From a bacterium (GTDB taxonomy: Bacteria > BMS3Abin14): a stretch of 64,000 nt of DNA. Where the stretch lies: contig JARGFZ010000003.1 of the NCBI GenBank assembly GCA_029210965.1, positions 55,893 through 119,892 of the forward strand, given 5' to 3'. Positions 26,040 to 48,561 of this stretch are shown piece after piece (within the stretch, counting starts at the first letter, position 1; every line of letters starts with the position of its first letter). The notes under the pieces are model-generated. The model searched no databases, had not been told where the DNA came from, and saw nothing but the letters and a program-made list of their open reading frames with translations. The translations under genes were made by a program, and so were the position numbers.

Positions 26040-28493
26040 ATGGCAAAAAAACCAAAACCCCTTACTCCAAAAGAACTGCGTTACACATGCGACGTGGGCT
26101 GCATCCCTTTTAAAACAACGGACGATGCCCCTGCTCTTGAGGGACCACTGGGCCAGGAACGTGCTTTGCAGTCTATGGATTTTGGACTAAAAATGAGAGG
26201 TCCTGGCTTTAACCTGTTTACTGTCGGGATGCCCGGCAGCGGCAGGTCTTCAACCGTAAGAGCAATGGTCAAAGAGAAGGCCCTGGCGGAGGAGGTGCCC
26301 CTCGATTGGGCTTACGTCTACAACTTCGAAAACGCCAGATCTCCGGTAGCGCTGTCCTTTCCCCCAGGACAAGGGAGAGTCTTTGTGCGGCAAATGAAGG
26401 AACTCATTGATCATCTGAAAATTGATATTCCTGCAGCGCTGGAAAACAGGGAGTTTGAAAACACAAGGAACCATTACCTCGAGCAGATGAGTCGTGAGAA
26501 CGCTATTGAGTTTGAAGAGTTTCAACAACTTGCCAGGCAGCAGAATTATTCCTTCGAAAAAGTGGAAAGTGAATTTGCTTTTATACCCTTGAAAGAGGGT
26601 GTCAGGCTACAACAGGAGGCGTTCAATGCGCTTCCCGACGAAGAAAGGTCCCTATACAGCGAGAACCTGCGCCAGCTGCAGAAACGATTTATGGATATAT
26701 CCCGTGCAACAGGCAAAAGGGACGTGGAAACTCGCAAGCAGTTGGAGAATATCACCCGGGAGCAAGTTGAAAGAACCGCCGAACCTCTTCTTGAACTCCT
26801 GATGGCAAATTACCCTGACAATGGAAAGGTGCAAAGGCATCTGGAACTATTGCTCGATGATATGGTGGATAATTTCCCCCAGTTTCTGCCGGCCCATGCC
26901 AACCAGACCCCCTTCGCGGGAGGTGAGCCAGCACCATTAGAGCTTCCTTTTTCCCGTTATCAGGTCAATCTCATCGTGGACATGATGAATCAGGAGGGGG
27001 CACCTGTTGTTGAAGAAAACCACCCTTCCTTTCAGAACATTATCGGCAGGATGGAATATGCCTTTCAATCCGGCGTCGCCATCACAGGCTATGAACAGAT
27101 CCAGCCCGGGGCGCTGCACCTCGCCAACGGCGGATACCTTATCCTGGATGCTCTGGAGGTCCTCCGTAGCCCCTTTGCATGGGAGGCGCTCAAGAACAGC
27201 CTCATGTCTGGACTGATAAAGATCGAGGATATGGGTGAACAGTACAAGATGTTTGCCACCATTACCCTTAAACCGGAGCCGATCCCCCTGTCTGTCAAAA
27301 TCATCCTCATAGGGAGTCCCCTCATCTATCACCAGCTGCTTGCCCACGAAGAGGATTTCAAAAAGCTGTTTAAAGTGAAGGCTGACTTCGGCAGTACCAT
27401 GAAGCGAACAGACGATGCTGTAAGGGACTACTCTATTTTTATCGCCTCCCTTTGCCATAAAGAGGACCTCCTTCCCTTTGACCTCTCTGCTATGGGAGCC
27501 GTGATAGAGCACGGTGTCCGTATGGCAGAAGACCAGTCACGCCTGACAACAAGTTTCTACCAGGTAGGCGATCTGGTCAGGGAGTCCTCCTTCTGGGCAG
27601 GCGAGGAAAAAGCCTCAACGGTTTCCCGCCCCCACGTGTTCAGAGCCATAAAGGAGCGAAAACAGCGATACAACATGGTTGAAGAGAGGATCGGCGAACT
27701 CATTGAGGAGGGCACACTTATGGTCCAGACCAAAGGCGAGGTCGTGGGCCAGGTCAACGGCTTATCGGTCTACACAATGGGTGACTACCGGTTCGGCAAA
27801 CCCACCAGGATCACTGCCAAAGTTTTCCTCGGCAAATCCGGCATGGTGAATATCGAACGTGAGGTCAAGCTCTCCGGAAGCATCCACAACAAAGGGGTGC
27901 TTATCGTTTCTTCCTACCTCGCAATGCGTTATGCCCAGGATTTTCCTTTGGGGCTTAGCTCCTCTGTTACCTTCGAACAAACCTACGACGAGGTGGATGG
28001 AGACAGCGCCACCGCTGCGGAACTCATCGCCCTCACTTCAGCTTTGGCGGAGGTTCCCGCCTACCAGAACATCGCCATTACCGGATCCATGGATCAGCAT
28101 GGGCGCATTCAGCCCATCGGAGGGGTTAACGAGAAGATCGAGGGGTTTTTCGCAAGCTGCCGCGACCACGGCCTCGATGGAGACGAAGGCGTTGTGATCC
28201 CGAAAGCTAACGTGAAGAACCTCATGCTTTCCAATGAGGTTGTCGAAGCGGTGGAACAAGGCATGTTCAACATTTATACTGCTGAAACCATCGACCAGGC
28301 TATCGAGATCCTCACCGGCACATCAGCTGGTGCAAGAGGGAAAAACGGGAAATTCCCCAAAGGAACTTTCAACCGCAAAGTTGAGGACCGCCTGCGGAAG
28401 ATGGCCGAGCAGACAAAGGGATCCAACGGCGAAGGGGAAGGTCAGGGCAGAGGGCGAAGGGCGAAGGACGAAGAAAAATCAGTATCGAAGTAA
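26040..28493 (+). CDS. Lon-like protease (COG1067/LonC-type): AAA+-like N-terminal domain with degenerate Walker A, C-terminal Lon S16 proteolytic domain
   Basis: Walker-A-like GMPGSGRSS (Arg in place of the invariant Lys); C-terminal Lon protease fold with catalytic Ser context GDSATAAELIALTSAL and Lys K...GGV..K. Confidence 0.8.
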   Translation: MAKKPKPLTPKELRYTCDVGCIPFKTTDDAPALEGPLGQERALQSMDFGLKMRGPGFNLFTVGMPGSGRSSTVRAMVKEKALAEEVPLDWAYVYNFENARSPVALSFPPGQGRVFVRQMKELIDHLKIDIPAALENREFENTRNHYLEQMSRENAIEFEEFQQLARQQNYSFEKVESEFAFIPLKEGVRLQQEAFNALPDEERSLYSENLRQLQKRFMDISRATGKRDVETRKQLENITREQVERTAEPLLELLMANYPDNGKVQRHLELLLDDMVDNFPQFLPAHANQTPFAGGEPAPLELPFSRYQVNLIVDMMNQEGAPVVEENHPSFQNIIGRMEYAFQSGVAITGYEQIQPGALHLANGGYLILDALEVLRSPFAWEALKNSLMSGLIKIEDMGEQYKMFATITLKPEPIPLSVKIILIGSPLIYHQLLAHEEDFKKLFKVKADFGSTMKRTDDAVRDYSIFIASLCHKEDLLPFDLSAMGAVIEHGVRMAEDQSRLTTSFYQVGDLVRESSFWAGEEKASTVSRPHVFRAIKERKQRYNMVEERIGELIEEGTLMVQTKGEVVGQVNGLSVYTMGDYRFGKPTRITAKVFLGKSGMVNIEREVKLSGSIHNKGVLIVSSYLAMRYAQDFPLGLSSSVTFEQTYDEVDGDSATAAELIALTSALAEVPAYQNIAITGSMDQHGRIQPIGGVNEKIEGFFASCRDHGLDGDEGVVIPKANVKNLMLSNEVVEAVEQGMFNIYTAETIDQAIEILTGTSAGARGKNGKFPKGTFNRKVEDRLRKMAEQTKGSNGEGEGQGRGRRAKDEEKSVSK

Positions 28494-39915: not shown

Positions 39916-41336
39916 CAGTCACCTTCCCTTGTCGGAAAAATCAATGAAACCACCGTGCCCTTTCCAGGCTCGCTCTCGATCGAAAGCTCACCATTGTGCA
40001 GTTCCATAATAGCGTAACAGATGGAAAGTCCGAGCCCAGTACCCTGACCGACCTCTTTTGTTGTAAAGAACGGTTCCACAATATGCGGCAGGTCTTTTTG
40101 GGTGATGCCGATGCCCGTATCAGCGATCTCGATAAGGACCGAATTCTTTTCCCTTCTGCCCGTGACCGAGATCCTGCCCCCCGGATCGGTGGCATCCATG
40201 GCGTTAATGAGGATGTTGAGCAGGGCCTCCTCCACCTTCCAGAGCATGGTAGATATTGTCCCGACACCATCGATATCAACAAAGAAGTTGTAATCTTTCT
40301 TTCTGGGCCCCAGGAGGTTCAAGGCTCCCTCAACCACTTCCTGCACCCTTGTCTCTACGAATTCCGAGTCCCGCGCACTGGACACCTGAAGGAGCTCCCG
40401 TGCGATCCTCGACGCCCTTTCAAGGTCCCTTTCCATCGTTCCTATCCTGTTAATATGAAGTTGGCTTGATCCCTCTTCACTGATCTCTTTTTTCAATATC
40501 TCCAGGTTGAGGGACAGGTTGGCAAGGGGGTTGTTGATCTCGTGTGCAACACCTGCGGCCAACCTTCCGAGGGCGCTAAGCTTTTCTGATTGTACAAACC
40601 TGTCCAGGCGCTCCTCGATGACAGCCTTTCGTTCTCCATCGAAAGTGTGCAGTGCGTGCATCATGAAGTGGAGGATAATTAGGGCGGAGATTCCCCTGAA
40701 AAGCTCTACAGGAAGATGGAACCCGGAAATGAGAGTTCCTGAGGGGATCAACCCCGTGAAGATCCCGTAAATGATGACTGAAAGACCCGCCCCGGTGAAA
40801 TTAAGAGCTCCCTTCTTGCTGACACCCCGTACTGTAACGGAATAGAGGATCAGACCGGCCCCGGAAAGCAATGCACCGGGCAGCGCAATGAGATTCCTGA
40901 TGCGGAATTGGGCCCACGCGAAGTAGTCCGCTGAACTTCCCTGGAAAGGGAGCAGGATCGATATCAGACCCGCCCCCACCAGAGCCGTGAACAGGACGCC
41001 AAGCCAGGCACTATAGCCGGGTTTTGTGATCCCCAGAACGCAGACTCCGAACAGGAGAAGGAAAAGGAAAGATACCAGTACTAGCCCTAGCTTGATGATG
41101 TTGGTCGTTACAGAGGGCTCTGGAACTGCATAAAGAGTATTGATCTTGAGGAACATCTCGTACCACTCATGGGATCCGTGAATGTAGGCGAACAGGGCAA
41201 AGATCCAGAGGAAGCGGGCTATCTTCAGATTGCTCAGGCTGGTGTCTCTCGAGGTTATGGATACACCGATGGCAAAAAAAGCACCCCCATAAAAAAGGTA
41301 AACAAGCAGGTTAAAGAGGTTTTTCTCCATGCTCAA
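39915..41336 (-). CDS. membrane sensor histidine kinase (multi-TM N-terminus, HisKA + HATPase_c)
   Basis: ~6 TM helices, H-box AHEINNPL, N/G-boxes (NILINAMDAT...DTGIGI...GTGLGL). Confidence 0.85.
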   Translation of the reverse strand: MSMEKNLFNLLVYLFYGGAFFAIGVSITSRDTSLSNLKIARFLWIFALFAYIHGSHEWYEMFLKINTLYAVPEPSVTTNIIKLGLVLVSFLFLLLFGVCVLGITKPGYSAWLGVLFTALVGAGLISILLPFQGSSADYFAWAQFRIRNLIALPGALLSGAGLILYSVTVRGVSKKGALNFTGAGLSVIIYGIFTGLIPSGTLISGFHLPVELFRGISALIILHFMMHALHTFDGERKAVIEERLDRFVQSEKLSALGRLAAGVAHEINNPLANLSLNLEILKKEISEEGSSQLHINRIGTMERDLERASRIARELLQVSSARDSEFVETRVQEVVEGALNLLGPRKKDYNFFVDIDGVGTISTMLWKVEEALLNILINAMDATDPGGRISVTGRREKNSVLIEIADTGIGITQKDLPHIVEPFFTTKEVGQGTGLGLSICYAIMELHNGELSIESEPGKGTVVSLIFPTREGD

Positions 41337-41445
41337 TCTTAACTCAGCAGATCAGAGTGTAAAGGGAAGATATTAATTACGAACTGAGGATTGAGAATTG
41401 AGGATTATTGCACCGTATTTAATCCTTGGGGACAGTCCCCAAGGA

Positions 41446-41772
41446 TTAAATACCATGTCTATCATTTTCCCCTGTTACAGTTTCAGCCGACTCTATAATC
41501 AACGCTTTGCCGCCGGCGATAGCCGAAGTGACCTTGAGCCTGCCGCTGGTGACCAGGCGCTGCACCGTGCCCCGGGAAACTCCCATCATTTTCCCTGCTT
41601 CTTCCTGGGTAAGGCCTTCCATGTCACAAAGGAGTACCGCTTCAACTTCGTCGTGGCGTAGTGTGATCTTTTCAAGTTCCACCATGGGTATCCCGGCTGG
41701 CTTGAAAACGGTTTCTTCTCCACTTCTGAACGGGCAAGAACAGTGCCTGTGTTTTCTTGGGCGAGGCGACAT
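41446..41772 (-). CDS. DUF134 (UPF0251) predicted DNA-binding protein
   Basis: sigma-70 region-4-like HTH LTQEEAGKMMGVSRGTVQRL; 1-nt overlap with the upstream NifX-like gene. Confidence 0.65.
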   Translation of the reverse strand: MSPRPRKHRHCSCPFRSGEETVFKPAGIPMVELEKITLRHDEVEAVLLCDMEGLTQEEAGKMMGVSRGTVQRLVTSGRLKVTSAIAGGKALIIESAETVTGENDRHGI

Positions 41773-42164
41773 CAGTGGCTATGCCCGTGCTCGCATCCAT
41801 AGCCATGACCGTGCCCGCCGCAGACCTTGTCGGCAGTGATCTCATTCAGGATTCCCTCCTTGAAGCTCTCGATGTTCTCTGCTACCGTCTGGCCGCCTGC
41901 CTGGTACACCTTCAACCCCGCACGGGTTAAGCCAGTGAGAGCTCCTGACCCGATCCTCCCCACAACCACGGCATCCACCTCTCTCCCTCCCAAAGCACTG
42001 AACGGCTGGCAGGCGCCGTGAAGGTGCTGACGATCAGGGTTGTGATGCTCCTCAAAGGCGTTTGCCTCAGGGTCAAAGATCAGGAACCCTTTTGCCGAAC
42101 CGAAATGTCCGTGGACCTGACTGTTTAGCCCTTCGTTCACATTAACTGGAAAACAGATCTTCAT
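41772..42164 (-). CDS. NifX/NafY-like dinitrogenase FeMo-cofactor-binding-domain protein with C-terminal His-rich tail
   Basis: Nitro_FeMo-Co-like core (ICFPVNVNEGL...HFG.A..F.I.D); C-terminal GHGHGYGCEHGHSH. Confidence 0.65.
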   Translation of the reverse strand: MKICFPVNVNEGLNSQVHGHFGSAKGFLIFDPEANAFEEHHNPDRQHLHGACQPFSALGGREVDAVVVGRIGSGALTGLTRAGLKVYQAGGQTVAENIESFKEGILNEITADKVCGGHGHGYGCEHGHSH

Positions 42165-42178
42165 AGCTTACCTCCATT

Positions 42179-42200
42179 GGCTATTATGTGTATAATAGCC
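42179..42200. promoter_or_regulatory. perfect 9-bp inverted repeat GGCTATTAT-gtgt-ATAATAGCC in the divergent NifX/DUF134 - rhodanese intergenic region
   Basis: seen directly; contains a TATAAT -10-like hexamer; lies between divergently transcribed genes. Confidence 0.45.
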
Positions 42201-42840
42201 AAATTTCCTCCATGTCAACCTGCACCCCCCGTCTAATTCAGGATCAGTCGATCAAAATACTGACAGGTGCACAAGGTGCACTTGCTTTACAGGAGTTCGA
42301 ACCAGGCATCACCCTGTTGGACACCGATGAATTAAAAAAGATGATCGAAACGGATGCTGACATGCTGGTTGTCAACACCCTGGCACCGATCCTCTTTCGT
42401 GACCAGGCCATTTCCGGTTCGGTCAACATACCCTACGAAAACCTGAAAAGGGGCAGGATCAGTTTCCCTGATGACAAAAACAAACAGATGGTCTTCTACT
42501 GCCTCGGCTTTCAGTGAACCATGGCTCCAGAGACTGCCAGGCTGGCGGTCGCACAGGGTTATACCAGCGTTTACCTATATGCGCAGGGCCTGAAGGGTTG
42601 GACCGAGAAGGGGCTCCCGGTAGAGTCGGCTAAAAAGATCCCCGCCATCTCCGTTGACAGAATACCTCCCGCCAGGGTGAAGGCCATGATGAATGAGGAC
42701 GATTCTATCCTTCCCCTGGACATCAGGGAAAACCTGGCACCAGGATCGCGCCATTTTTCAAAAACAAGGGCTACGATGTTGTCGGGGTCATGGAGGGGGG
42801 CATCACCGCCTGGAAGGATGTGGGTCTTCCCGTCAAGTAG
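42188..42840 (+). CDS. rhodanese-domain sulfurtransferase with in-frame TGA at 42515-42517 (candidate selenoprotein or pseudogene); second, partial rhodanese domain with frameshift
   Basis: ORFs 42188..42517 and 42521..42880 are in the same frame across one TGA (…KNKQMVFYCLGFQ-TGA-TMAPETARLAVAQGY…GLKGWTEKGLPVES); 7-bp GC hairpin gacugcc-AGGCU-ggcgguc 15-33 nt after the TGA; 3' part shifts frame near 42750. Confidence 0.45.
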
Positions 42841-43072
42841 CACATTGGAAGGACTGAAACCAGGGCATTTAATAACCTGACGCATAGATACAGCGATGGG
42901 GTGGCATGGCGGAAAACCTGTCACCCCATCTTCACGCCTGCCCACTACCCTGACACTCTGGCAGCTTGTCGGCAACTTTCCTCTTTACAATCTTTTTACC
43001 TATGTGACCTCGCTTGTTTATAACCACCCCTTACCATAGTGCGATGAAGATCCGGTCCGGCCTGTTGTATCA

Positions 43073-43657
43073 TTGTGTGATAAGCGCGCACGACCAGAAA
43101 AAGAAAGGCACTTGAACAAAAGGCTCCTCGTCATTGAGGATGACCTGGACATGGCCGGTATTATCGAGGACCAGCTGAAGGATGCCGGCTATACCGTCAC
43201 CGTCACCCACAACGGTGCCTCAGGGCTTGAACTGGCCGCGAAGCAGGACCACGACTTCATTGTGCTGGACATCATGCTGCCGGAGACAGACGGGCTGGAG
43301 ATATGCCGCCAGGTCCGCTCCATGCCAGGCTATACCCACATCCTCATGCTCACCGCCCTCTCCTCGGAGATCGACAAAGTTGTTGGCCTGGAGATGGGGG
43401 CCGACGACTACATGACCAAGCCTTTCAGCCTCCGGGAGTTGATGGCCAGGATCAAAACGATCCTGCGCCGGGACGCTACTCTCAGAGCAAAGAGAACCGA
43501 AGAGCAGCAGGAGACGATCCGGATAGATGCTCTGGTTATTGATGTTGGCAAACGGCGCGTTACCCGCTCGGACACCCCCATTGAACTGACGGGAAAGGAG
43601 TTTGACCTGCTGCTTCACTTTGCCCGGAAACCAGGCAGGGTCTACTCCAGCTTTTGA
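43073..43657 (+). pseudogene. OmpR-family response regulator lacking most of the winged-helix DNA-binding domain
   Basis: intact receiver domain and start of wHTH (…LTGKEFDLLLHFARKPGRVYS) then stop; no frame continues the expected ~50 C-terminal residues. Confidence 0.6.
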
Positions 43658-44895
43658 CCCTTTTCCCGGCCGCTGCAGGGTTCAACATAGTGTGGACACT
43701 CTACACGGTCAGATATCAACTCCTTAGTGCTGATCAGAGACTCAACAGCGGACTGGCTGACTATCTCGTTAAACACGAATTTGACGAAGGAGAACTGGCG
43801 AACGCAGGAGCAAAACTCGAACACAGCTTCGAGATGCTCATGGACATCAATCCTAACATCGAACTCTACCTTCTCGACCCTGAGGGGACGATCCTGGCTT
43901 ATTCGGCCCCCAAAGGCCATGTCGTGAGAGAACAGGTATCGGTCAACCCTATCGTGGAGTACCTGTCTCCGGCACCAAGCCTACCCATTCTCGGTGACGA
44001 CCCTCGCCACATGTGGCGCCAGAAACCTTTTTCCGCTGCCGTCGTCTCAATGGAAGGCCTCAAAAATGGGTACCTTTACATCATTCTTGGTGGTGAGGAA
44101 CACGACTCCCTTTTCGACCTTTTTACCGGCAACTCCATCTTCCGCATCAGCCTCCTGGTTTCCCTTTCAGCCCTCCTGTTTCTCTTTGCCACCGTATTCC
44201 TGCTCTTCAGGATAGCGACCGTTCGTCACAGACGGCTTGTTCTTGCCATGAAAGCGTTTCGCCAAAGTGACTTTTCCGTACCCGTCCAGGTGGTCCCCGG
44301 AACCCGGAAAATGGGGGGGGGACGAGATCGATCTGCTGGAAACGGTGTTTACCGAAATGTCCGAAAGGATCGGGGAGCAGATAGGGGAACTCAAGAACAA
44401 GGACAATCTGCGGCGTGAACTGGTCAGTAATATTTTCCACGACCTGAGGACGCCTATCGCTTCCCTCTCATGGACTTCCAGGAACCGGCCCGGCTCAAAC
44501 ATATTCAGCTATCGGCCAACATCGATGAAAACACGAACCTCGTCAACGATGACATCCGCCTGTTGGAGCGGGCCATCCAGAACATCATCGACAACGCCCT
44601 GAAGTTCACTCCCGAAAACGAACAAGTCACCGTGAGCCTCGCAAGTTTCGGGGACAAGATCAGGTTGTCCATCAGAAATACGGGACCGGGTGTCAGCCCC
44701 ATTGATGTGCCTCATATCTTCGAACGTTTCTATAGAGCACGATCTTCCAGCAGTGAAACCGGAGTGGAACTCGGCCTGGCCATTTCCCAGCGTATCGCCG
44801 AACTGCACAGTACTTCCGTAGGCCTTGAGAACCATCCTGAGGTGGGCAGCGTTTTCACCCTGGACCTGGAAGCGTGGTCCCAGCCGGAGTTTTAA
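43654..44895 (+). pseudogene. sensor histidine kinase with two frameshifts and an internal deletion between H-box and N-box
   Basis: three overlapping ORFs (43654..44418, 44267..44602, 44470..44895) tile one HK; first shift at a G9 homopolymer (44313-44321); H-box FHDLRTPIASL lies only ~55 aa from the N-box DNALKF (normally ~100). Confidence 0.65.
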
Positions 44896-45313
44896 TATTT
44901 TCGGCTCTTCCGGGAAATAAGTACCTGCAAATAAGCCCTGCTTTTACCAAAGGGGTAACTGTCAAACTCTAAAAGCTTAATTAACCACAATTCTTTTTCA
45001 CCACCCGTTCGTCGCTCGCTTCAACAATATGACTCACTAGAGGACGCTGAAGACACCCTTCGGCAGGCTCAGGGCAGACTGAGGAATCAAAAGCACTGAG
45101 ACTATCCCCTTCACCGAAGCTGATTGAGTCATCCAGGCCTGGATGAAAGTGAACTTTAATCTTGGTCTGCAGGACTCAATCAGTTGATTTCCAGGAAATC
45201 CTTCTCCCGTGGTGAAATGGGTACTGTAAGCATCTATTCCGCAAAAACGGGAGTATATACAGACCTTTCATACAGACCTTTCCTACGTGGAAAAGAGTGC
45301 GCAAGCGTGGAAA

Positions 45314-45703
45314 ATGGCACTCACGGCCGAACAGTTCCCTATCCTCAGGGAAGAAGGTACGGGACGCCCCTTCACAGGGGCACTTTGGGACAACCATCGG
45401 AAGGGCATTTACCGCTGCGCTGGATGCGGTATTGACCTGTTCTCTTCCGCTACCAAATACGATTCCAGAACAGGTTGGCCCAGTTTCTGGCAACCCATCG
45501 CAGCCGGCAAGGTTCGAGAGGTGGAGGACAACAGTTTTTTCACGCGCAGGACAGAGGTAAAGTGCGCCAGGTGCGGCGGCCACCTTGGACATATGTTCAA
45601 CGACGGTCCGAAACCCACAGGGCTGAGGTACTGCATCAACTCGGCGAGCCTCACCTTCGTAGATGTACCGGTAGAAGGGGCCATGATTAATGAGGAGGGC
45701 TAG
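45314..45703 (+). CDS. msrB: peptide-methionine (R)-S-oxide reductase
   Basis: CAGCG...GWPSF...[35 protein letters not shown] is the SelR/MsrB signature with both zinc-binding CxxC pairs and catalytic RYC; start at ATG 45314 (an upstream GTG at 45287 is possible). Confidence 0.9.
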
Positions 45704-45998
45704 GGTTAAATTATTGTTATGGCTGGCTCTTCCCGGAGCCCTGATCCTGACGGCCATGGGACCGACAGTCCTGACCCATGGCGCTGACCTTCAGACCGCC
45801 ACCTTTTACGTAGCCTGATATGACCTGGGCAAAGCCGCCCTGGCAGGGCGGCCGGGAGTCGTGAAAGTGTCAAGCGGATGGCGCGGTTTCAGGGTGATCA
45901 ACACTGTTTTGTACGACCCGGAGCTCATAACCGTGGAAGAGATGGTTGGGATCCTCAAAAAAAGCGGGATCTATCGCGGCACAGCTGATTTTCAGTGA
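45690..45998 (+). CDS. secreted HMA/MerP-like ferredoxin-fold protein with in-frame TGA (candidate selenocysteine) in the metal-binding loop
   Basis: ATG 45690 with gaagggg RBS, signal peptide [31 protein letters not shown]; mature TATFYVA-[TGA 45816-18][54 protein letters not shown] matches the beta-alpha-beta-beta-alpha-beta layout of MerP/CopZ with TGA where GMTCxxC normally sits; hairpin gccgccc-UGGCA-gggcggc 16-34 nt downstream; packed between msrB and msrA. Confidence 0.5.
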
Positions 45999-46025
45999 TT
46001 ATAATAAGGAAAGGAGGTTCAGACC

Positions 46026-46661
46026 ATGAAAAGAATGCTCGTAATGATAATTGCGATGTTCTCCCTGGCGGCGGTTGTTACCGTTCCAGGCTCAGTAAAT
46101 GCCGAGGAGATAACAATGGATCAGAAAAACAAGGGTTATGAAACAGCCACCTTTGCAGGAGGCTGTTTCTGGTGCATGGAACCACCCTTCGACAAGCTGG
46201 ATGGAGTTATCTCAACCACATCGGGCTACACCGGAGGGCAGGAGAAGAACCCGACTTACCAGGAAGTGTCCGCGGGCAAGACAGGCCACGCGGAGGCGGT
46301 TCAGATCGTCTTCGATCCCGGGAAGGTTTCCTACAAAAAACTGCTGGAGGTTTTCTGGATGCAGATCAACCCAACGACCCCTGACCGACAGTTCGTGGAT
46401 GTGGGCTCCCAATACCGCTCGGGTATTTTCTACCTCGATGACAAGCAGCGCCGCCTGGCAGAGGAATCGAAAATAGAAATAGCTGAATCCGGACGCTTTG
46501 ATGGGCCCATCGTCACCGAGATAACCAGGGCAGGTGATTTCTGGCCGGCCGAGGATTACCACCAGGATTACTACATGAAGAGTCCGCAGCGGTACAAATT
46601 CTACCGCTTCGGATCGGGCCGGGACCGGTACCTGAATAAGGTGTGGGGGGGGAAACCGTGA
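46026..46661 (+). CDS. msrA: peptide-methionine (S)-S-oxide reductase, periplasmic (signal peptide)
   Basis: ATFAGGCFWCMEP active-site motif; N-terminal signal peptide; strong RBS aaggaaaggagg. Confidence 0.9.
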   Translation: MKRMLVMIIAMFSLAAVVTVPGSVNAEEITMDQKNKGYETATFAGGCFWCMEPPFDKLDGVISTTSGYTGGQEKNPTYQEVSAGKTGHAEAVQIVFDPGKVSYKKLLEVFWMQINPTTPDRQFVDVGSQYRSGIFYLDDKQRRLAEESKIEIAESGRFDGPIVTEITRAGDFWPAEDYHQDYYMKSPQRYKFYRFGSGRDRYLNKVWGGKP

Positions 46662-46710
46662 TTCGTGATTAGTGCTTGGTGATTCGGAAAAAAATTATAG
46701 TCCAACAAAG

Positions 46711-46763
46711 AAAAGGGCCACATGCAGCCATTTAAGCTGGCTGGGCGCGGCCCTTTTCATTTG
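46711..46763 (+). terminator. rho-independent terminator after msrA
   Basis: aagggcc...(nested hairpin cagcc/ggctg)...ggccctt followed by ttcattt. Confidence 0.6.
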
Positions 46764-46886
46764 TGATCATCTGTCCCGTTAGTGACCGGGGTCTTTGGTT
46801 TGTTCGAGTTACGAGTCACTAATCACGAGTCACGGTTCTTCCCGAATCACGAATCACGGTTCTTATTCCGAGTTCCGAGTCTCAAA

Positions 46887-47654
46887 TTACGAGTCACGGC
46901 CCTTTTCTCTGCTATCCATGAGCTCATTCCACCAGGATCTGTTAAGAAAAGCATCCTCAGGAAAATCCACCATCCTTTCGAACCGCTCGGGCGACACTGT
47001 CAGCGAGATGATCTCCGGGGGCAGGTACCTGCGCATGGCGAGATCGGTCGCCCCGATGACTGCCCGGTCCTTCCCGAAGTTGTTAAACACCTCCCACATG
47101 AGACCGCACCCGGACGAAAAGGGCGCGGCGACCTCATCGGGATCAGATCTCCAAAAGGTGGCAAGAGTCATAAGTCCGGCCAGTCGGTCCGGGTCCGCGA
47201 AGAAGGTAACGGACTTGACCTGGTCCCAGTGATCCAGTTTGAGAGGGCCCATCAGGACATGATCACCGACAGGTTCGGGAAATACTATCTGGTCCAGGAA
47301 TTCCTGAGCGAGGGCAGGAGTAGCCTTTAACCCCTCACCCATGGGGGCCCCGTTTTTTCCATCGGTGAGGAAGTTGGCCATCCAGGGGGCGAATTTTTTG
47401 TCAAAACCGAAATGCTTCTGCAGCCCGGGGCAGCCGTGTGTCGGGTTCATGAAATCATCGCCCTCGGCCCGTTTGACTACAAGAGTTTCCCCCTTGAGCC
47501 AACGGGGGTAGTAAGCAAAGCAACAGGCACGGCCCTTGGCCTGGACAGATGGTTCGAAATCGGGTGAAGGATCGGTATCGTACAGCCCAATGATAGGGGT
47601 ATCCAACCTGAGAGCTTTCGTGAGCCTTTCGATCCCTGCCGACGTCGGTGCCAT
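46887..47654 (-). CDS. DUF169 (COG2043) family protein
   Basis: 255 aa with the family's conserved Cys/Gly-rich blocks (ACCFAYYP...HGCPG...SGCG). Confidence 0.65.
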   Translation of the reverse strand: MAPTSAGIERLTKALRLDTPIIGLYDTDPSPDFEPSVQAKGRACCFAYYPRWLKGETLVVKRAEGDDFMNPTHGCPGLQKHFGFDKKFAPWMANFLTDGKNGAPMGEGLKATPALAQEFLDQIVFPEPVGDHVLMGPLKLDHWDQVKSVTFFADPDRLAGLMTLATFWRSDPDEVAAPFSSGCGLMWEVFNNFGKDRAVIGATDLAMRRYLPPEIISLTVSPERFERMVDFPEDAFLNRSWWNELMDSREKGRDS

Positions 47655-47810
47655 ATTTCCTTCCTTCGGGTAATTATATCAGGTCAACTTCTATTCAAAG
47701 ATATCCCTGCAATTTAAGATCGGGGTTCTCTTCTATAAACTCCCAAAGAACGGTGCCAGCTTGCTTTCAAGATCCGGATCGTTCTCAATTATCTCAAGAC
47801 CTATGCGGTT

Positions 47811-48107
47811 TTAAACAACCTCGCCGTATTGCGACTGGGAAACAAAACGCTGATCCGATACCTTTCGGCATCTTAAAGCATCCACAAAGAAACCCTCATC
47901 AAAGCAGTGGAGACCAATTATTGTTTCTTCCGGCACAGACTCATCTCCGTAATCAAAGATAGACAAACCTCCAAGGCTGATATCCATCATCCGATAGGAC
48001 CTGCCATCGAGCAAAACCATGGCTCCCTTGGTGGGAGGGTGCCGCACCCACTTTCTTCTTTCCGTAACAGTGTCTTTCCACTCCAGTGATGGGTCCCTGC
48101 GTTTCAT
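47811..48107 (-). CDS. PilZ domain protein
   Basis: RRKWVRH...G...DISLGGLSI matches the PilZ RxxxR / D-x-S-x-G-G motifs; ATG 48107 with aaaggtgg RBS. Confidence 0.65.
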   Translation of the reverse strand: MKRRDPSLEWKDTVTERRKWVRHPPTKGAMVLLDGRSYRMMDISLGGLSIFDYGDESVPEETIIGLHCFDEGFFVDALRCRKVSDQRFVSQSQYGEVV

Positions 48108-48261
48108 ATCCTTTACCACCTTTGTTTGATATTGCCTGGATCAAGTAACCATGTTTCTATTATACATTCAATTAACTGATGGGACGGATCGTACACTGCA
48201 GAAAAAATGAAAATACCCGGAGACCCGGTGTGGATCGGGGCAGTAAACGGCCAGGGAGATC

Positions 48262-48561
48262 TCAGTCTCCCCCTTTCATACGCTTAATTACCTCATCCTC
48301 GATCCATTGGTCAGCCTCAAACCGAACCTCCTTGTACAGCTCTGACTTGGCGTAGGAGATGCTCAACTGGGTCTCGGAAGCGATAGTGCCCGTCTCTTTC
48401 ACACCCAGGTGACGCATATGCTCTTCCGATTCCCGCCCCTGTCTTTCCAAGGTCTCTCTGGCGGTCTGGTAACGCCTTGCGGACTCTTCCTTAACCCAGA
48501 CCAGGGCCTCCTCTTCAAGCTGCTCACGGAGTTTTTTTTCCTTATCTGACATGTCTGACAT
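48262..48561 (-). CDS. hypothetical charged helical protein
   Basis: 99-aa ORF with ggaagggag RBS; highly charged, coiled-coil-like. Confidence 0.5.
   Translation of the reverse strand: MSDMSDKEKKLREQLEEEALVWVKEESARRYQTARETLERQGRESEEHMRHLGVKETGTIASETQLSISYAKSELYKEVRFEADQWIEDEVIKRMKGGD

What the first reader, a model, noticed from the sequence alone, without database searches (positions are those of the whole stretch)
42188..42880. Rhodanese-like gene with in-frame TGA plus SECIS-like hairpin, and a decayed second domain
A rhodanese domain (…KNKQMVFYCLGFQ-TGA-TMAPETARLAVAQGYTSVYLYAQGLKGWTEKGLPV…) continues in the same frame across TGA 42515-42517. Starting 15 nt downstream is the hairpin gacugcc-AGGCU-ggcgguc. 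It has the same geometry and GGC loop core as the hairpin after the TGA in the HMA-like gene. Rhodanese-related sulfurtransferases are an established prokaryotic selenoprotein family (Zhang & Gladyshev surveys). However, the 3' part (second rhodanese-like half-domain) needs a frameshift near 42750 and seems to lack its catalytic loop. A nonsense-mutated pseudogene is therefore the competing explanation.
Basis: partly seen in the sequence, partly recalled or inferred. Interest (0 to 1): 0.6.

Follow-up and report, generated by a model that had tools for sequence, protein, structure and literature searches.

The report
Decayed selenocysteine rhodanese gene remnant
The in-frame TGA is a real, inherited selenocysteine codon with its recoding hairpin, in a periplasmic two-domain rhodanese family, but this copy has lost its start region and the core of its second domain and is most likely a dead gene.

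Summary
The rhodanese domain reads through TGA 42515-42517. A 7-8 bp hairpin (42532-42550, loop A-GGC-U) follows 14 nt later.

The TGA is not a nonsense mutation. Four distinct orthologues, on six metagenome contigs, carry the same in-frame TGA and the same hairpin, with conserved coding on both sides. In all of them gene callers split the gene into 100-aa and 148-aa ORFs. In 120 of 120 Cys-type homologues the aligned residue is Cys (FYCNG[VI]KCGKS). The motif is therefore C-x4-U. The upstream FYC Cys sits at the canonical catalytic position, and Sec sits five residues later. More distant relatives carry C-x4-U (UxxS) and even U-x4-U.

The window copy is nevertheless broken. An 894-bp segment carrying DUF134 and NifX-like genes replaces its promoter, ribosome-binding site and signal peptide. 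A 127-nt deletion between 9-nt direct repeats removes the catalytic loop of domain 2 and shifts the frame. The adjacent response-regulator and histidine-kinase genes carry two deletions of about 200 nt and a frameshift.

Verdict: a recently decayed remnant of a genuine selenoprotein gene, belonging to a known kind (Sec-containing rhodaneses). Moderate to low interest. No reads were available, so an assembly artefact is not excluded.

The parts
41398..42292 (.). 894-bp segment that stands where intact orthologous loci have about 270 bp holding the rhodanese promoter, Shine-Dalgarno site and signal-peptide codons. It carries DUF134 (41446-41772, minus strand) and a NifX-like Nitro_FeMo-Co gene (41772-42164, minus strand).
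   Evidence: blastn matches L003 338-3729 to window 38002-41398 and L003 3999-4436 to window 42292-42729. The alignment shows no similarity to the RBS or signal-peptide region of L001, L003, L004 or L006.
42188..42265 (+). Non-homologous 5' end of the open frame (VYNSQISSMSTCTPRLIQDQSIKIL...). It has no hydrophobic signal-peptide core in any frame and no Shine-Dalgarno site before GTG 42188 or ATG 42212.
   Evidence: The orthologues start MNRSLYVLLAVVAMLLVCAQGANA, preceded by AAAAGGAGGG.
42266..42514 (+). Conserved N-terminal part of rhodanese domain 1, ending ...MVFYCLGFQ. The Cys is at 42500-42502, the canonical catalytic position.
   Evidence: 88.6% DNA identity to L006. Pfam match. The alignment to 6MXV and 1YT8 places this Cys on the catalytic Cys.
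42515..42517 (+). In-frame TGA, read as a selenocysteine codon. It is the second position of the C-x4-U motif.
   Evidence: The same TGA is present in L001/L002, L003, L004/L005 and L006. The aligned column is Cys in 120 of 120 Cys-type homologues and in 28 more distant full-length clusters.
42532..42550 (+). SECIS-type hairpin GACUGCC-AGGCU-GGCGGUC. It can also be drawn as an 8-bp stem with a GGC triloop.
   Evidence: The stem is kept in 5 of 5 sequences. The only stem change is C-G to U-G in the window. 5 of 7 hairpin codons are codon-identical, against 25 of 85 in the background. MFE is -11.0 kcal/mol. It meets all four constraints of the published bSECIS model (PMC13188914).
42518..42729 (+). 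Rest of domain 1, the linker, and the first strand of domain 2 (...ILPLDIRE), still in frame 1.
42721..42730 (+). Junction of a 127-nt deletion. In intact genes the deleted stretch is flanked by CATCAGGGA ... CATAAGGGA. The deletion removes about 42 codons, including the CHKGKLG catalytic loop of domain 2, and shifts the frame by +1.
   Evidence: Alignment A1 columns 670-796. blastn matches L006 204-641 to window 42292-42729 and L006 760-912 to window 42721-42873.
42736..42840 (+). Out-of-frame (frame 3) remnant of the C-terminus of domain 2, GTRIAPFFKNKGYDVVGVMEGGITAWKDVGLPVK, with the original TAG stop at 42838-42840.
   Evidence: 93% DNA identity to L006.
43073..44895 (+). Neighbouring OmpR-type response regulator and histidine kinase. 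They are syntenic with the intact orthologous loci but are broken here.
   Evidence: Relative to L090 (RR 235 aa, HK 487 aa), about 209 nt are missing at 43651-43675 and about 202 nt at 44467-44468, with a frame change near 44240-44310. The Pfam domains are truncated or split.

Best explanation
Window 42266-42840 is the decayed remnant of a genuine selenoprotein gene.

**The intact gene.** It is seen in four orthologues. It encodes a Sec-pathway-exported (periplasmic) protein of about 250 aa with two rhodanese domains.
- Domain 1 carries the active-site loop F-Y-C-L-G-[FY]-Q-U. The Cys is at the canonical rhodanese catalytic position. A selenocysteine lies five residues later, where the loop meets the following helix.
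- The UGA is recoded by SelB binding to a hairpin 14 nt downstream. The hairpin has an 8-bp G+C-rich stem and a GGC apical loop.

**Inferred chemistry.** The catalytic Cys accepts sulfane sulfur as a persulfide. The neighbouring selenolate attacks it, forming a selenenylsulfide or Se-bound sulfur. The C-x4-U pair would then be a redox-active centre for processing periplasmic sulfane sulfur or polysulfide. Domain 2 would act as a structural or secondary catalytic partner.

**The window copy.** The Sec codon and hairpin are intact, but the copy has suffered two lesions.
1. Its promoter, ribosome-binding site and signal-peptide core were replaced by an 894-bp DUF134/NifX-like segment.
2. A 127-nt deletion between 9-nt direct repeats removes the core of domain 2 and shifts the frame.

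It is therefore most likely not expressed as a working protein.

**Shown:** conservation of the UGA, the hairpin and the Cys column; both lesions; decay of the adjacent two-component genes.
**Inferred:** SelB-dependent recoding, the chemistry, the periplasmic location, and loss of function.
For: **The TGA is an inherited Sec codon.**
- All four homologue clusters found by protein search start at MAPETARLAV, directly after the TGA.
- Their six contigs all show a 100-aa ORF, then TGA, then one codon, then a 148-aa ORF, in one frame.
- The Rhodanese domain spans the TGA.
- Cys occupies the U column in 120 of 120 Cys-type two-domain homologues (FYCNG[VI]KCGKS) and in 28 more distant full-length clusters.
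- About 18-20 further clusters of 120-166 aa begin 0-12 residues after that column. Two were checked at the DNA level: L089 reads FYCLGRR-TGA-VAS and L088 reads FY-TGA-KGFK-TGA-VKAP. Each has a hairpin with a G-rich loop at the same place.

**The hairpin behaves like a SECIS element.**
- The stem is kept in 5 of 5 sequences. The single stem change gives a G-U pair.
- Synonymous sites are conserved in the hairpin codons: 5 of 7 against 29% background.
- The published bSECIS constraints are all met. These are a 3-9 nt loop, a 4-16 bp stem, the N1-G-[G/U]-N-N2 loop pattern, 16-37 nt spacing, and MFE <= -7.5 kcal/mol. The observed values are loop A-GGC-U, spacing 21-22 nt, and MFE -11.0.

**The host lineage appears to use Sec.**
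- A second gene in the window (HMA-like, TGA 45816-45818) has the same hairpin geometry. Its TGA and hairpin are conserved in L090 and implied in 7 homologue clusters.

**This copy has decayed.**
- 5' replacement.
- 127-nt deletion with microhomology at its ends.
- Loss of the signal peptide.
- Neighbouring RR and HK genes with two deletions of about 200 nt plus a frameshift relative to L090.
- Long ORFs elsewhere in the window are intact, so general sequencing error is unlikely.
Against: - No reads were available, so the deletion and the 5' junction could be assembly artefacts or minority alleles.
- The exact deleted allele was not found in any public assembly.
- The window lineage shows no excess of non-synonymous change: 14 non-synonymous against 17 synonymous lineage-specific changes. 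Any decay is therefore recent, and loss of function rests on structural lesions only.
- Domain 1, the TGA and the hairpin are all intact, so a truncated product cannot be formally excluded.
- No tRNA-Sec was found in the 64-kb window, and selA/B/D were not looked for.
- Covariation support for the hairpin is weak: there are no double compensatory changes.
- The chemistry is inferred only. No close relative has a solved structure or an assay.
Confidence: 0.78

Rival explanations
1. The window sequence misrepresents the organism. The 127-nt deletion, the 5' junction, or both are assembly or consensus artefacts, or a minority allele. On this view the real gene is an intact, functional two-domain Sec-rhodanese like L006.
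For: - The window appears to come from an uncultured lineage. Its closest relatives are MAGs.
- Neither the exact allele nor the neighbouring NifX-like protein is on record in public assemblies.
- The retained parts are under apparent purifying selection and are 88-93% identical to L006.
Against: - Three independent deletions of 127-209 nt and one replacement lie within 3 kb, while flanking genes are intact. This is the pattern of deletional decay, not of random indel error.
- The deletion lies exactly between 9-nt direct repeats, which is typical of replication slippage in vivo.
- The 5' segment carries complete, plausible genes with their own RBS.
Confidence: 0.1
2. The remnant is still used. 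It would be a leaderless or weakly initiated transcript giving a cytoplasmic single-domain Sec-rhodanese (domain 1 plus a 50-residue frameshifted tail). This would be a case of neofunctionalisation after truncation.
For: - Domain 1, the Sec codon and the hairpin are intact. The one stem substitution preserves pairing.
- There is no excess of non-synonymous change.
- A TATAAT box lies at 42191-42196, just upstream of ATG 42212.
Against: - There is no Shine-Dalgarno site and no signal peptide.
- The TATAAT box lies in a palindrome that more plausibly serves the divergent NifX-like gene.
- In tandem rhodaneses the two domains pack together, and here domain 2 is destroyed and replaced by out-of-frame sequence (established knowledge of the fold).
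- Window-specific substitutions hit positions that are invariant in the orthologues: P67S, V35L, L167P.
- The adjacent regulator genes are dead.
Confidence: 0.08
3. The TGA is an ordinary stop codon. Either it is a nonsense mutation, or the family is really two separate small genes (100 aa and 148 aa) coupled through TGA-ACC-ATG. The hairpin would then be only a by-product of the conserved ETARLAV peptide.
For: - Gene callers annotate two ORFs in every homologue.
- An ATG lies 3 nt after the TGA.
- The hairpin lies in conserved coding sequence and shows no double compensatory changes.
Against: - The TGA is conserved in four orthologues at 67-86% amino-acid identity to L006.
- The split would fall inside one rhodanese domain, at its active-site loop.
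- Homologues are continuous, with an invariant Cys exactly there.
- Relatives with other downstream residues and no ATG (VKAP, VASV) also have the TGA and a hairpin.
- Synonymous sites of the hairpin are conserved above background.
Confidence: 0.02

Closest known systems
Rhodanese-like domain-containing selenoprotein 'form 1' (PF00581, UxxS motif; example WP_010941598.1, Geobacter sulfurreducens), as listed in PMC13188914 and PMC9312934
   Same: - It has a rhodanese domain with a single Sec.
- Relatives of the window gene carry exactly U-x-x-S at this column (L089: U-V-A-S).
- Cys forms read C-x-x-S (CGKS, CTAS).
- It occurs in the Deltaproteobacteria/Desulfobacterota world.
   Different: - The window subfamily reads U-T/V-M-A (UxxA).
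- The reference sequence could not be retrieved, so its domain architecture and the alignment of its Sec could not be compared.
- Identity with form 1 is therefore a lead, not a result.
TsoB, rhodanese/DsbD fusion-like selenoprotein (NCBIfam NF045694, UxxxxU)
   Same: - It is the best NCBIfam match for domain 1: 66 bits, profile positions 42-161.
- It has the same x4 spacing between the two redox residues.
- A relative (L088) has the full U-x4-U.
   Different: - The score is far below the cut-off (66 against 805).
- There is no DsbD-like membrane domain.
- The second domain is a rhodanese.
- The first position is Cys, not Sec, in the window and its orthologues.
Rhodanese-related (seleno)protein, LYCAU type (NCBIfam NF041203, CxU; 'form 3', abundant in Olavius symbionts, PMC1976440)
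   Same: It is a small Sec-containing rhodanese from marine sulfur-cycling Deltaproteobacteria. Domain 2 of the orthologue gives a partial match of 68 bits.
   Different: - Scores are below the cut-off of 115 (68 and 35 bits).
- The motif is C-x-U, not C-x4-U.
- It has a single domain.
Cys-type two-domain periplasmic rhodaneses of Desulfobulbales (FYCNG[VI]KCGKS; e.g. P0005, P0006 from Thiovibrio, P0108 from Ca. Electrothrix)
   Same: - The architecture is the same: signal peptide, a C-x4-C domain, and a canonical CxxGxRS domain, about 250 aa.
- They share 29% identity over residues 32-250.
   Different: - They have Cys instead of Sec.
- Their genomic context differs (next to HdrA-like genes in L007).
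- Their function is also uncharacterised.
Solved tandem rhodaneses (PDB 6MXV rhodanese-like family protein; 1YT8 thiosulfate sulfurtransferase) and Sud polysulfide-sulfur transferase (1QXN)
   Same: They share the rhodanese fold, and the catalytic Cys aligns with the FYC Cys. Sud is a periplasmic sulfur carrier, a functional analogy.
   Different: - They are only distant (E 1e-8 to 1e-4).
- They have the canonical C-x5-[ST] loop with no second Cys or Sec.
- None is a selenoprotein.

Membership tests
Bacterial selenoprotein gene (Sec-UGA plus bSECIS) | In-frame UGA conserved in orthologues, with conserved coding sequence on both sides | tested here: met
   The TGA is at the same codon in L001/2, L003, L004/5 and L006. 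They are 67-86% identical to L006 across the whole 250 aa.
Bacterial selenoprotein gene (Sec-UGA plus bSECIS) | Cys-containing homologues with Cys aligned to the UGA | tested here: met
   120 of 120 Cys at the column, plus 28 more distant full-length clusters with C/C.
Bacterial selenoprotein gene (Sec-UGA plus bSECIS) | bSECIS consensus: loop 3-9 nt, stem 4-16 bp, G in the first two loop positions, 16-37 nt from the UGA, MFE <= -7.5 kcal/mol (PMC13188914) | tested here: met
   Loop AGGCU (N1-G-G-N-N2 with an A-U closing pair), 7-8 bp stem, 21-22 nt spacing, MFE -11.0 kcal/mol.
Bacterial selenoprotein gene (Sec-UGA plus bSECIS) | Covariation support for the hairpin | tested here: inconclusive
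   There are no double compensatory changes and one G-C to G-U change. Synonymous-site conservation is 5 of 7 against 29% (binomial p about 0.025 by my own arithmetic).
Bacterial selenoprotein gene (Sec-UGA plus bSECIS) | Host has the Sec machinery (selA, selB, selC, selD) | tested here: inconclusive
   There is no tRNA-Sec in the 64-kb window, and the sel genes were not searched for. Indirect support comes from a second conserved TGA plus hairpin in an intact HMA-like gene.
Bacterial selenoprotein gene (Sec-UGA plus bSECIS) | Selenium incorporation shown experimentally | not testable with these tools
   This needs 75Se labelling or mass spectrometry.
Rhodanese homology domain (Pfam PF00581) | Score above the gathering threshold, with Cys at the active-site loop | tested here: met
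   51.6 bits against 22.2 for the window read-through. The orthologue L006 scores 82.2 bits with two stretches. The FYC Cys aligns with the catalytic Cys of 6MXV and 1YT8.
TsoB (NF045694) | Score above the cut-off, DsbD-like membrane domain, and U-x4-U | tested here: not met
   66 bits against 805. Only profile positions 42-161 match. There is no membrane domain, and the motif is C-x4-U.
Rhodanese_LYCAU (NF041203, 'form 3') | Score above the cut-off and a C-x-U motif | tested here: not met
   35 bits (window) and 68 bits (L006) against 115. The motif differs.
Rhodanese-like selenoprotein 'form 1' (UxxS) | Sec followed by x-x-S in a PF00581 domain, and homology to WP_010941598.1 | not testable with these tools
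   The motif in the window is UxxA. The relative L089 has UxxS. The reference sequence is not retrievable here.
Intact, expressible member of the two-domain periplasmic family | Shine-Dalgarno site and N-terminal signal peptide | tested here: not met
   Orthologues have AAAAGGAGGG followed by MNRS..LLVCAQGANA. The window has unrelated sequence and no hydrophobic core in any frame.
Intact, expressible member of the two-domain periplasmic family | Complete in-frame second rhodanese domain | tested here: not met
   The 127-nt deletion removes about 42 codons, including CHKGKLG, and the frame is shifted.

The most novel reading that the evidence does not exclude
The two-domain periplasmic rhodaneses with a [C/U]-x4-[C/U] loop may be a distinct, largely unannotated selenoenzyme class of sulfur-cycling sediment bacteria. 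Gene callers routinely split them into two ORFs, and no curated selenoprotein model captures them. Their Cys-Sec (or Sec-Sec) pair would carry out reductive chemistry on sulfane sulfur or polysulfide, not plain sulfur transfer. The window would then show such a gene, together with its dedicated two-component regulator, caught in the act of being lost while a neighbouring selenoprotein gene (HMA-like, between msrB and msrA) is kept.
Probability: 0.2. Interest if true: 0.55.

Novelty: new member of a known kind. Interest (0 to 1): 0.35.

Why it matters
**Annotation.** A TGA that looks like a pseudogene lesion is the one feature here that is not a lesion. The real damage lies elsewhere.

**Scale of mis-annotation.** This rhodanese family is systematically mis-annotated. 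In every Sec-type member examined, the gene is called as two ORFs. About 18-20 of the 150 best representative clusters appear to start just after the Sec codon. If correct, many selenoproteins in sediment metagenomes go uncounted.

**Evolution.** The locus is a clean example of selenoprotein gene loss by medium-sized deletions, with the SECIS element still intact. This bears on the known balance between selenoprotein gain and loss (PMC1794560).

**Biochemistry.** The C-x4-U and U-x4-U loop in a rhodanese active site is an untested catalytic arrangement. The recently described Sec-dependent multihaem polysulfide reductase of Geobacter (PMC13510729) shows that selenium-sulfur chemistry in the periplasm is physiologically important.

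Tried and rejected
- **Rfam, permissive thresholds, 41-47 kb.** Only chance-level hits and no SECIS family. Rfam seems to have no general bacterial SECIS model, so this says nothing either way.
- **Fold of a 70-nt stretch.** Not better than shuffles (z = -0.6). Energy alone does not single out the hairpin.
- **The search for related loci in GTDB representative genomes.** No relative of the Sec subfamily was found. The family could therefore not be tied to a named species, and the window's own genome is not in that collection.
- **Metagenome scan.** It gave a single locus, the Cys form L007.
- **Handing in a U-to-C edited sequence to the representative search.** The 148-aa fragments were used as a profile instead.
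- **Exact-sequence look-ups of the window's 119-aa ORF and the NifX-like protein.** Not on record, so there is no independent confirmation of the deleted allele.
- **Relative-rate and dN/dS test.** The window-specific excess of changes (31 against 5) is probably due to tree topology. Its N/S ratio (14/17) matches that of intact pairs, so it gives no evidence for relaxed selection.
- **Whether the upstream multihaem cytochrome (37968-39020) is a Sec protein like Geobacter MccSep.** It ends at a normal stop with no continuation, here and in L003. Rejected.
- **tblastn with classical HMA proteins.** It did not find the 'HMA-like' gene. A TGA-plus-hairpin scan found it instead.
- **Structure prediction.** Not run. 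The tool returns no coordinates, so the Cys-Sec distance could not have been measured.
Full report
**1. The observation**

Frame 1 of window 42188-42880 reads through TGA 42515-42517 as ...KNKQMVFYCLGFQ-*-TMAPETARLAVAQGYTSVYLYAQGLKGWTEKGLPV.... A Pfam scan of the read-through protein gives one Rhodanese domain (PF00581, 51.6 bits, cut-off 22.2). It covers residues 38-132 and so runs across the TGA.

The hairpin is GACTGCC (42532-42538), AGGCT (42539-42543), GGCGGTC (42544-42550). It begins 14 nt after the last base of the TGA. On its own it folds at -11.0 kcal/mol. A 70-nt stretch around it is no more stable than shuffled sequence (z = -0.6).

Hairpins of this class occur about 124 times per 128,000 positions in the window. 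[quoted passage not shown] One in the permitted place after a given TGA therefore has roughly a 2% chance. The case rests on conservation, not on energy.

**2. The TGA is inherited, not a mutation**

A protein search with the read-through sequence (U replaced by C) returned only four clusters. All are 148 aa long and all start at MAPETARLAV, the residues right after the TGA.

Their six contigs come from six samples and give four distinct sequences. Each shows a 100-aa ORF, then TGA, then one codon (ACC or GTC), then the 148-aa ORF, all in one frame. The context is FYCLG[FY]Q-TGA-[TV]MAPETARLAV. The orthologues are 67-86% identical to L006 over all 250 residues.

The metagenome scan gave one more distant two-domain homologue, L007 (29% identity). 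It reads FYCNGVKCGKS: a Cys sits where the window has TGA. Using L007 as query brought in 1257 Cys-type proteins, mostly from Desulfobulbales. In the best 120, the column aligned to the TGA is Cys in 120 of 120, and the FYC Cys is also invariant.

The FYC Cys is at the canonical catalytic position; it aligns with the catalytic Cys of PDB 6MXV and 1YT8. The TGA position is a second, strictly conserved Cys/Sec five residues later.

**3. Sec at this column is common in the wider family**

A full HMMER scan was run with a profile of the four 148-aa fragments. It listed 28 full-length two-domain clusters with Cys at both columns. It also listed some 18-20 clusters of 120-166 aa whose first residue lies 0-12 residues after the Sec column. 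That is what a gene caller produces when it restarts after a TGA.

Two were checked at the DNA level:
- L089 reads FYCLGRR-TGA-VASVNAAG (C-x4-U, U-x-x-S), with hairpin GCCGCC-GGTCT-GGCGGC.
- L088 reads FY-TGA-KGFK-TGA-VKAPQSAR (U-x4-U), with hairpin AGCGCC-AGGCT-GGCGTT.

**4. The hairpin as a SECIS element**

In the five-sequence alignment the 8-bp stem is kept in all five. The only stem change is C-G to U-G, in the window. The only loop change is C to U, in L001. There are no double compensatory changes.

Among codons whose amino acid is invariant and degenerate, 25 of 85 are codon-identical across the five genes. In the seven hairpin codons (ETARLAV) the figure is 5 of 7, and both variable sites are compatible with the structure. 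By my own binomial arithmetic this gives p of about 0.025.

The published bacterial SECIS model requires four things (PMC13188914):
- a 3-9 nt apical loop and a 4-16 bp stem;
- G in the first two loop positions, usually as N1-G-[G/U]-N-N2 with N1 and N2 paired;
- 16-37 nt between the UGA and the loop;
- MFE <= -7.5 kcal/mol.

The element here has loop A-G-G-C-U with an A-U closing pair, 21-22 nt spacing, and MFE -11.0 kcal/mol. All four are met. Rfam gave nothing relevant.

**5. This copy is broken**

*(a) The 5' end.* The orthologues start with AAAAGGAGGG-N5-ATG and a signal peptide (MNRSLYVLLAVVAMLLVCAQGANA|L). The window has unrelated sequence upstream of about 42266, with no hydrophobic stretch in any frame and no Shine-Dalgarno site.

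blastn shows L003 338-3729 matching window 38002-41398, and L003 3999-4436 matching window 42292-42729. So 894 bp in the window stand where L003 has 270 bp. This segment carries a DUF134 gene and a NifX-like (Nitro_FeMo-Co) gene on the other strand.

*(b) Domain 2.* Relative to all four orthologues, 127 nt are missing (alignment A1 columns 670-796). In the intact genes the deleted stretch is bounded by CATCAGGGA and CATAAGGGA. The window retains one copy, at 42721-42729. This is the signature of slippage between short direct repeats.

The deletion removes about 42 codons, including the CHKGKLG[TS][RK] loop, and shifts the frame. The last 34 codons and the original TAG stop survive in frame 3 (42736-42840, 93% identical to L006).

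*(c) Timing.* Lineage-specific changes in the window are 17 synonymous and 14 non-synonymous. This ratio is no higher than between intact genes, so the decay is recent. Some changes hit residues that are invariant in the orthologues: P67S, V35L, L167P.

**6. The neighbourhood is decaying too**

The OmpR-type regulator downstream is syntenic in L003, L004 and L005. L090 is a 26-kb contig found through the HMA-like gene. It carries an intact RR (235 aa) and HK (487 aa), followed by msrB, the HMA-like gene, msrA and DUF169, in the same order as window 43016-48555.

Against L090 the window differs as follows:
- about 209 nt are missing at the RR/HK boundary (L090 3482-3715 against window 43651-43675);
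- about 202 nt are missing inside the HK (L090 4506-4709 against window 44467-44468);
- the frame changes near 44240-44310.

The msrA, DUF169 and HMA-like genes, and long ORFs elsewhere (up to 817 aa), are intact. The lesions are therefore local. They are not the signature of general indel error.

**7. Does the host still decode Sec?**

No tRNA-Sec lies in the window, and the sel genes were not searched for. A second gene gives indirect support. It spans 45687-45998 and encodes a signal peptide and then ...[22 protein letters not shown]..., followed by a hairpin of the same geometry, GCCGCCC-TGGCA-GGGCGGC.

All seven homologue clusters of this gene are 57-aa fragments that start just after the TGA. 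L090 has the same TGA and an identical hairpin. That gene looks intact, so the lineage very probably uses Sec.

**8. How the intact protein most likely works (inferred)**

The protein is exported: it has a signal peptide with an AxA cleavage site. It has two rhodanese domains. In domain 1 the catalytic Cys would take up sulfane sulfur as a persulfide, as in all rhodaneses.

The Sec sits five residues later, at the position of the Arg or Ser/Thr that closes the canonical CxxGxR[ST] loop. It should therefore lie next to the Cys sulfur. It can attack the persulfide or form a selenenylsulfide.

The only curated family with the same spacing is TsoB. There a U-x4-U rhodanese domain is fused to a DsbD-like electron-transfer membrane domain. 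This points to redox cycling of the pair, not plain transfer.

In several Sec-type relatives the Cys of domain 2 is replaced by Asp (P0131, P0133, P0161, P0170). Domain 1 is therefore the conserved business end. No relative has a solved structure or an assay.

**9. Comparison with known families**

Sec-containing rhodaneses are established. Five forms are listed in PMC13188914: UxxS, UxxG, CxU/NF041203, UxxG/COG2897, and TsoB UxxxxU/NF045694. Eight such genes were found in the Olavius symbionts (PMC1976440).
- The window gene and its orthologue L006 reach neither NCBIfam selenoprotein cut-off: NF045694 66 bits against 805, and NF041203 35 and 68 bits against 115.
- The U-x-x-S motif of 'form 1' is exactly what the relative L089 shows, and the Cys forms read C-x-x-S. 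The family is therefore probably 'form 1' or a close variant of it. The reference sequence could not be retrieved to test this.
- The window's own subfamily (FYCLG[FY]QU[TV]MA) is rare: four clusters among 5.8 billion proteins, and none in GTDB representative genomes.

**10. Verdict**

The alternative it feared, a nonsense mutation, is wrong. Even so, the gene is very probably dead for other reasons.

It is a new, decayed member of a known kind. The interest is moderate to low. It lies mainly in the annotation lesson, in the example of selenoprotein loss, and in the untested C-x4-U / U-x4-U active site. The main caveat is the lack of read-level data.

The organism is an uncultured lineage. Its LonC-like protein is 95% identical to that of MAG 'bacterium isolate PFL40' and 79% identical to that of the 2.03-Mb chromosome CP070698.

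Noticed in passing
window 45687-45998 (+), TGA 45816-45818, hairpin about 45834-45852: A second candidate selenoprotein gene. It encodes a signal peptide plus an HMA-like small protein (...[24 protein letters not shown]...) and lies between msrB and msrA. Its hairpin is GCCGCCC-TGGCA-GGGCGGC. All 7 homologue clusters are 57-aa fragments that start after the TGA. L090 has the same TGA and an identical hairpin. There are weak NCBIfam hits to VPGUxxT thioredoxin-like and UxxU metal-binding (seleno)proteins.
   Followed up: partly
window 43073-44895 (+): The OmpR-type response regulator and histidine kinase downstream of the rhodanese remnant are pseudogenes relative to the intact syntenic L090. 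About 209 nt are missing at 43651-43675, about 202 nt at 44467/44468, and there is a frame change near 44240-44310.
   Followed up: partly
L088 (whole contig, gene 122-892): A relative with two in-frame TGAs in the active-site loop: FY-TGA-KGFK-TGA-VKAP. This is a U-x4-U two-domain rhodanese without a DsbD domain. Domain 2 has Asp in place of the catalytic Cys.
   Followed up: partly
proteins P0131-P0234 (one search list): About 18-20 of the 150 best representative clusters are 120-166 aa long and begin 0-12 residues after the Sec column. This suggests many Sec-type members annotated as two ORFs. Only two were checked at the DNA level.
   Followed up: partly
window 41415-41453: A perfect 19-nt inverted repeat with a 1-nt spacer (GTATTTAATCCTTGGGGAC / GTCCCCAAGGATTAAATAC). 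It lies at the left edge of the 894-bp replaced segment, between the histidine-kinase start and the DUF134 stop. It gives chance-level Rfam 'miRNA' hits.
   Followed up: no
window 42177-42202: An 11-nt perfect palindrome, TTGGCTATTAT-gtgt-ATAATAGCCAA, containing TATAAT. It lies in the 47-nt gap between the NifX-like start and the rhodanese remnant. It may be the operator or promoter of the NifX-like/DUF134 operon.
   Followed up: no
window 42431-42445: A second patch of unusual synonymous-site conservation: the PYENL codons are codon-identical in all five genes at 4 of 5 codons. It has no obvious structure and is unexplained.
   Followed up: no
window 45269-45694 (+): The msrB (SelR) homologue matches only residues 44-185 of the L090 protein. 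Its N-terminal signal-peptide region may be missing or diverged.
   Followed up: no
window 37968-39020 (-), and L003 304-1434: A multihaem cytochrome c (MtrC/NrfB-like) is conserved upstream of the HK/RR pair next to the rhodanese locus. It is not a Sec protein here. The pairing of a periplasmic rhodanese with a multihaem cytochrome recalls the Geobacter ext cluster (PMC13510729).
   Followed up: partly
window 26040-28493 (+): The LonC-like protease is 95% identical to that of MAG 'bacterium isolate PFL40' (JALHUC010000584) and 79% identical to that of CP070698 ('bacterium bin582', a 2.03-Mb chromosome). The window seems to come from an unclassified small-genome lineage. The rhodanese family was not found in those representative genomes.
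   Followed up: no
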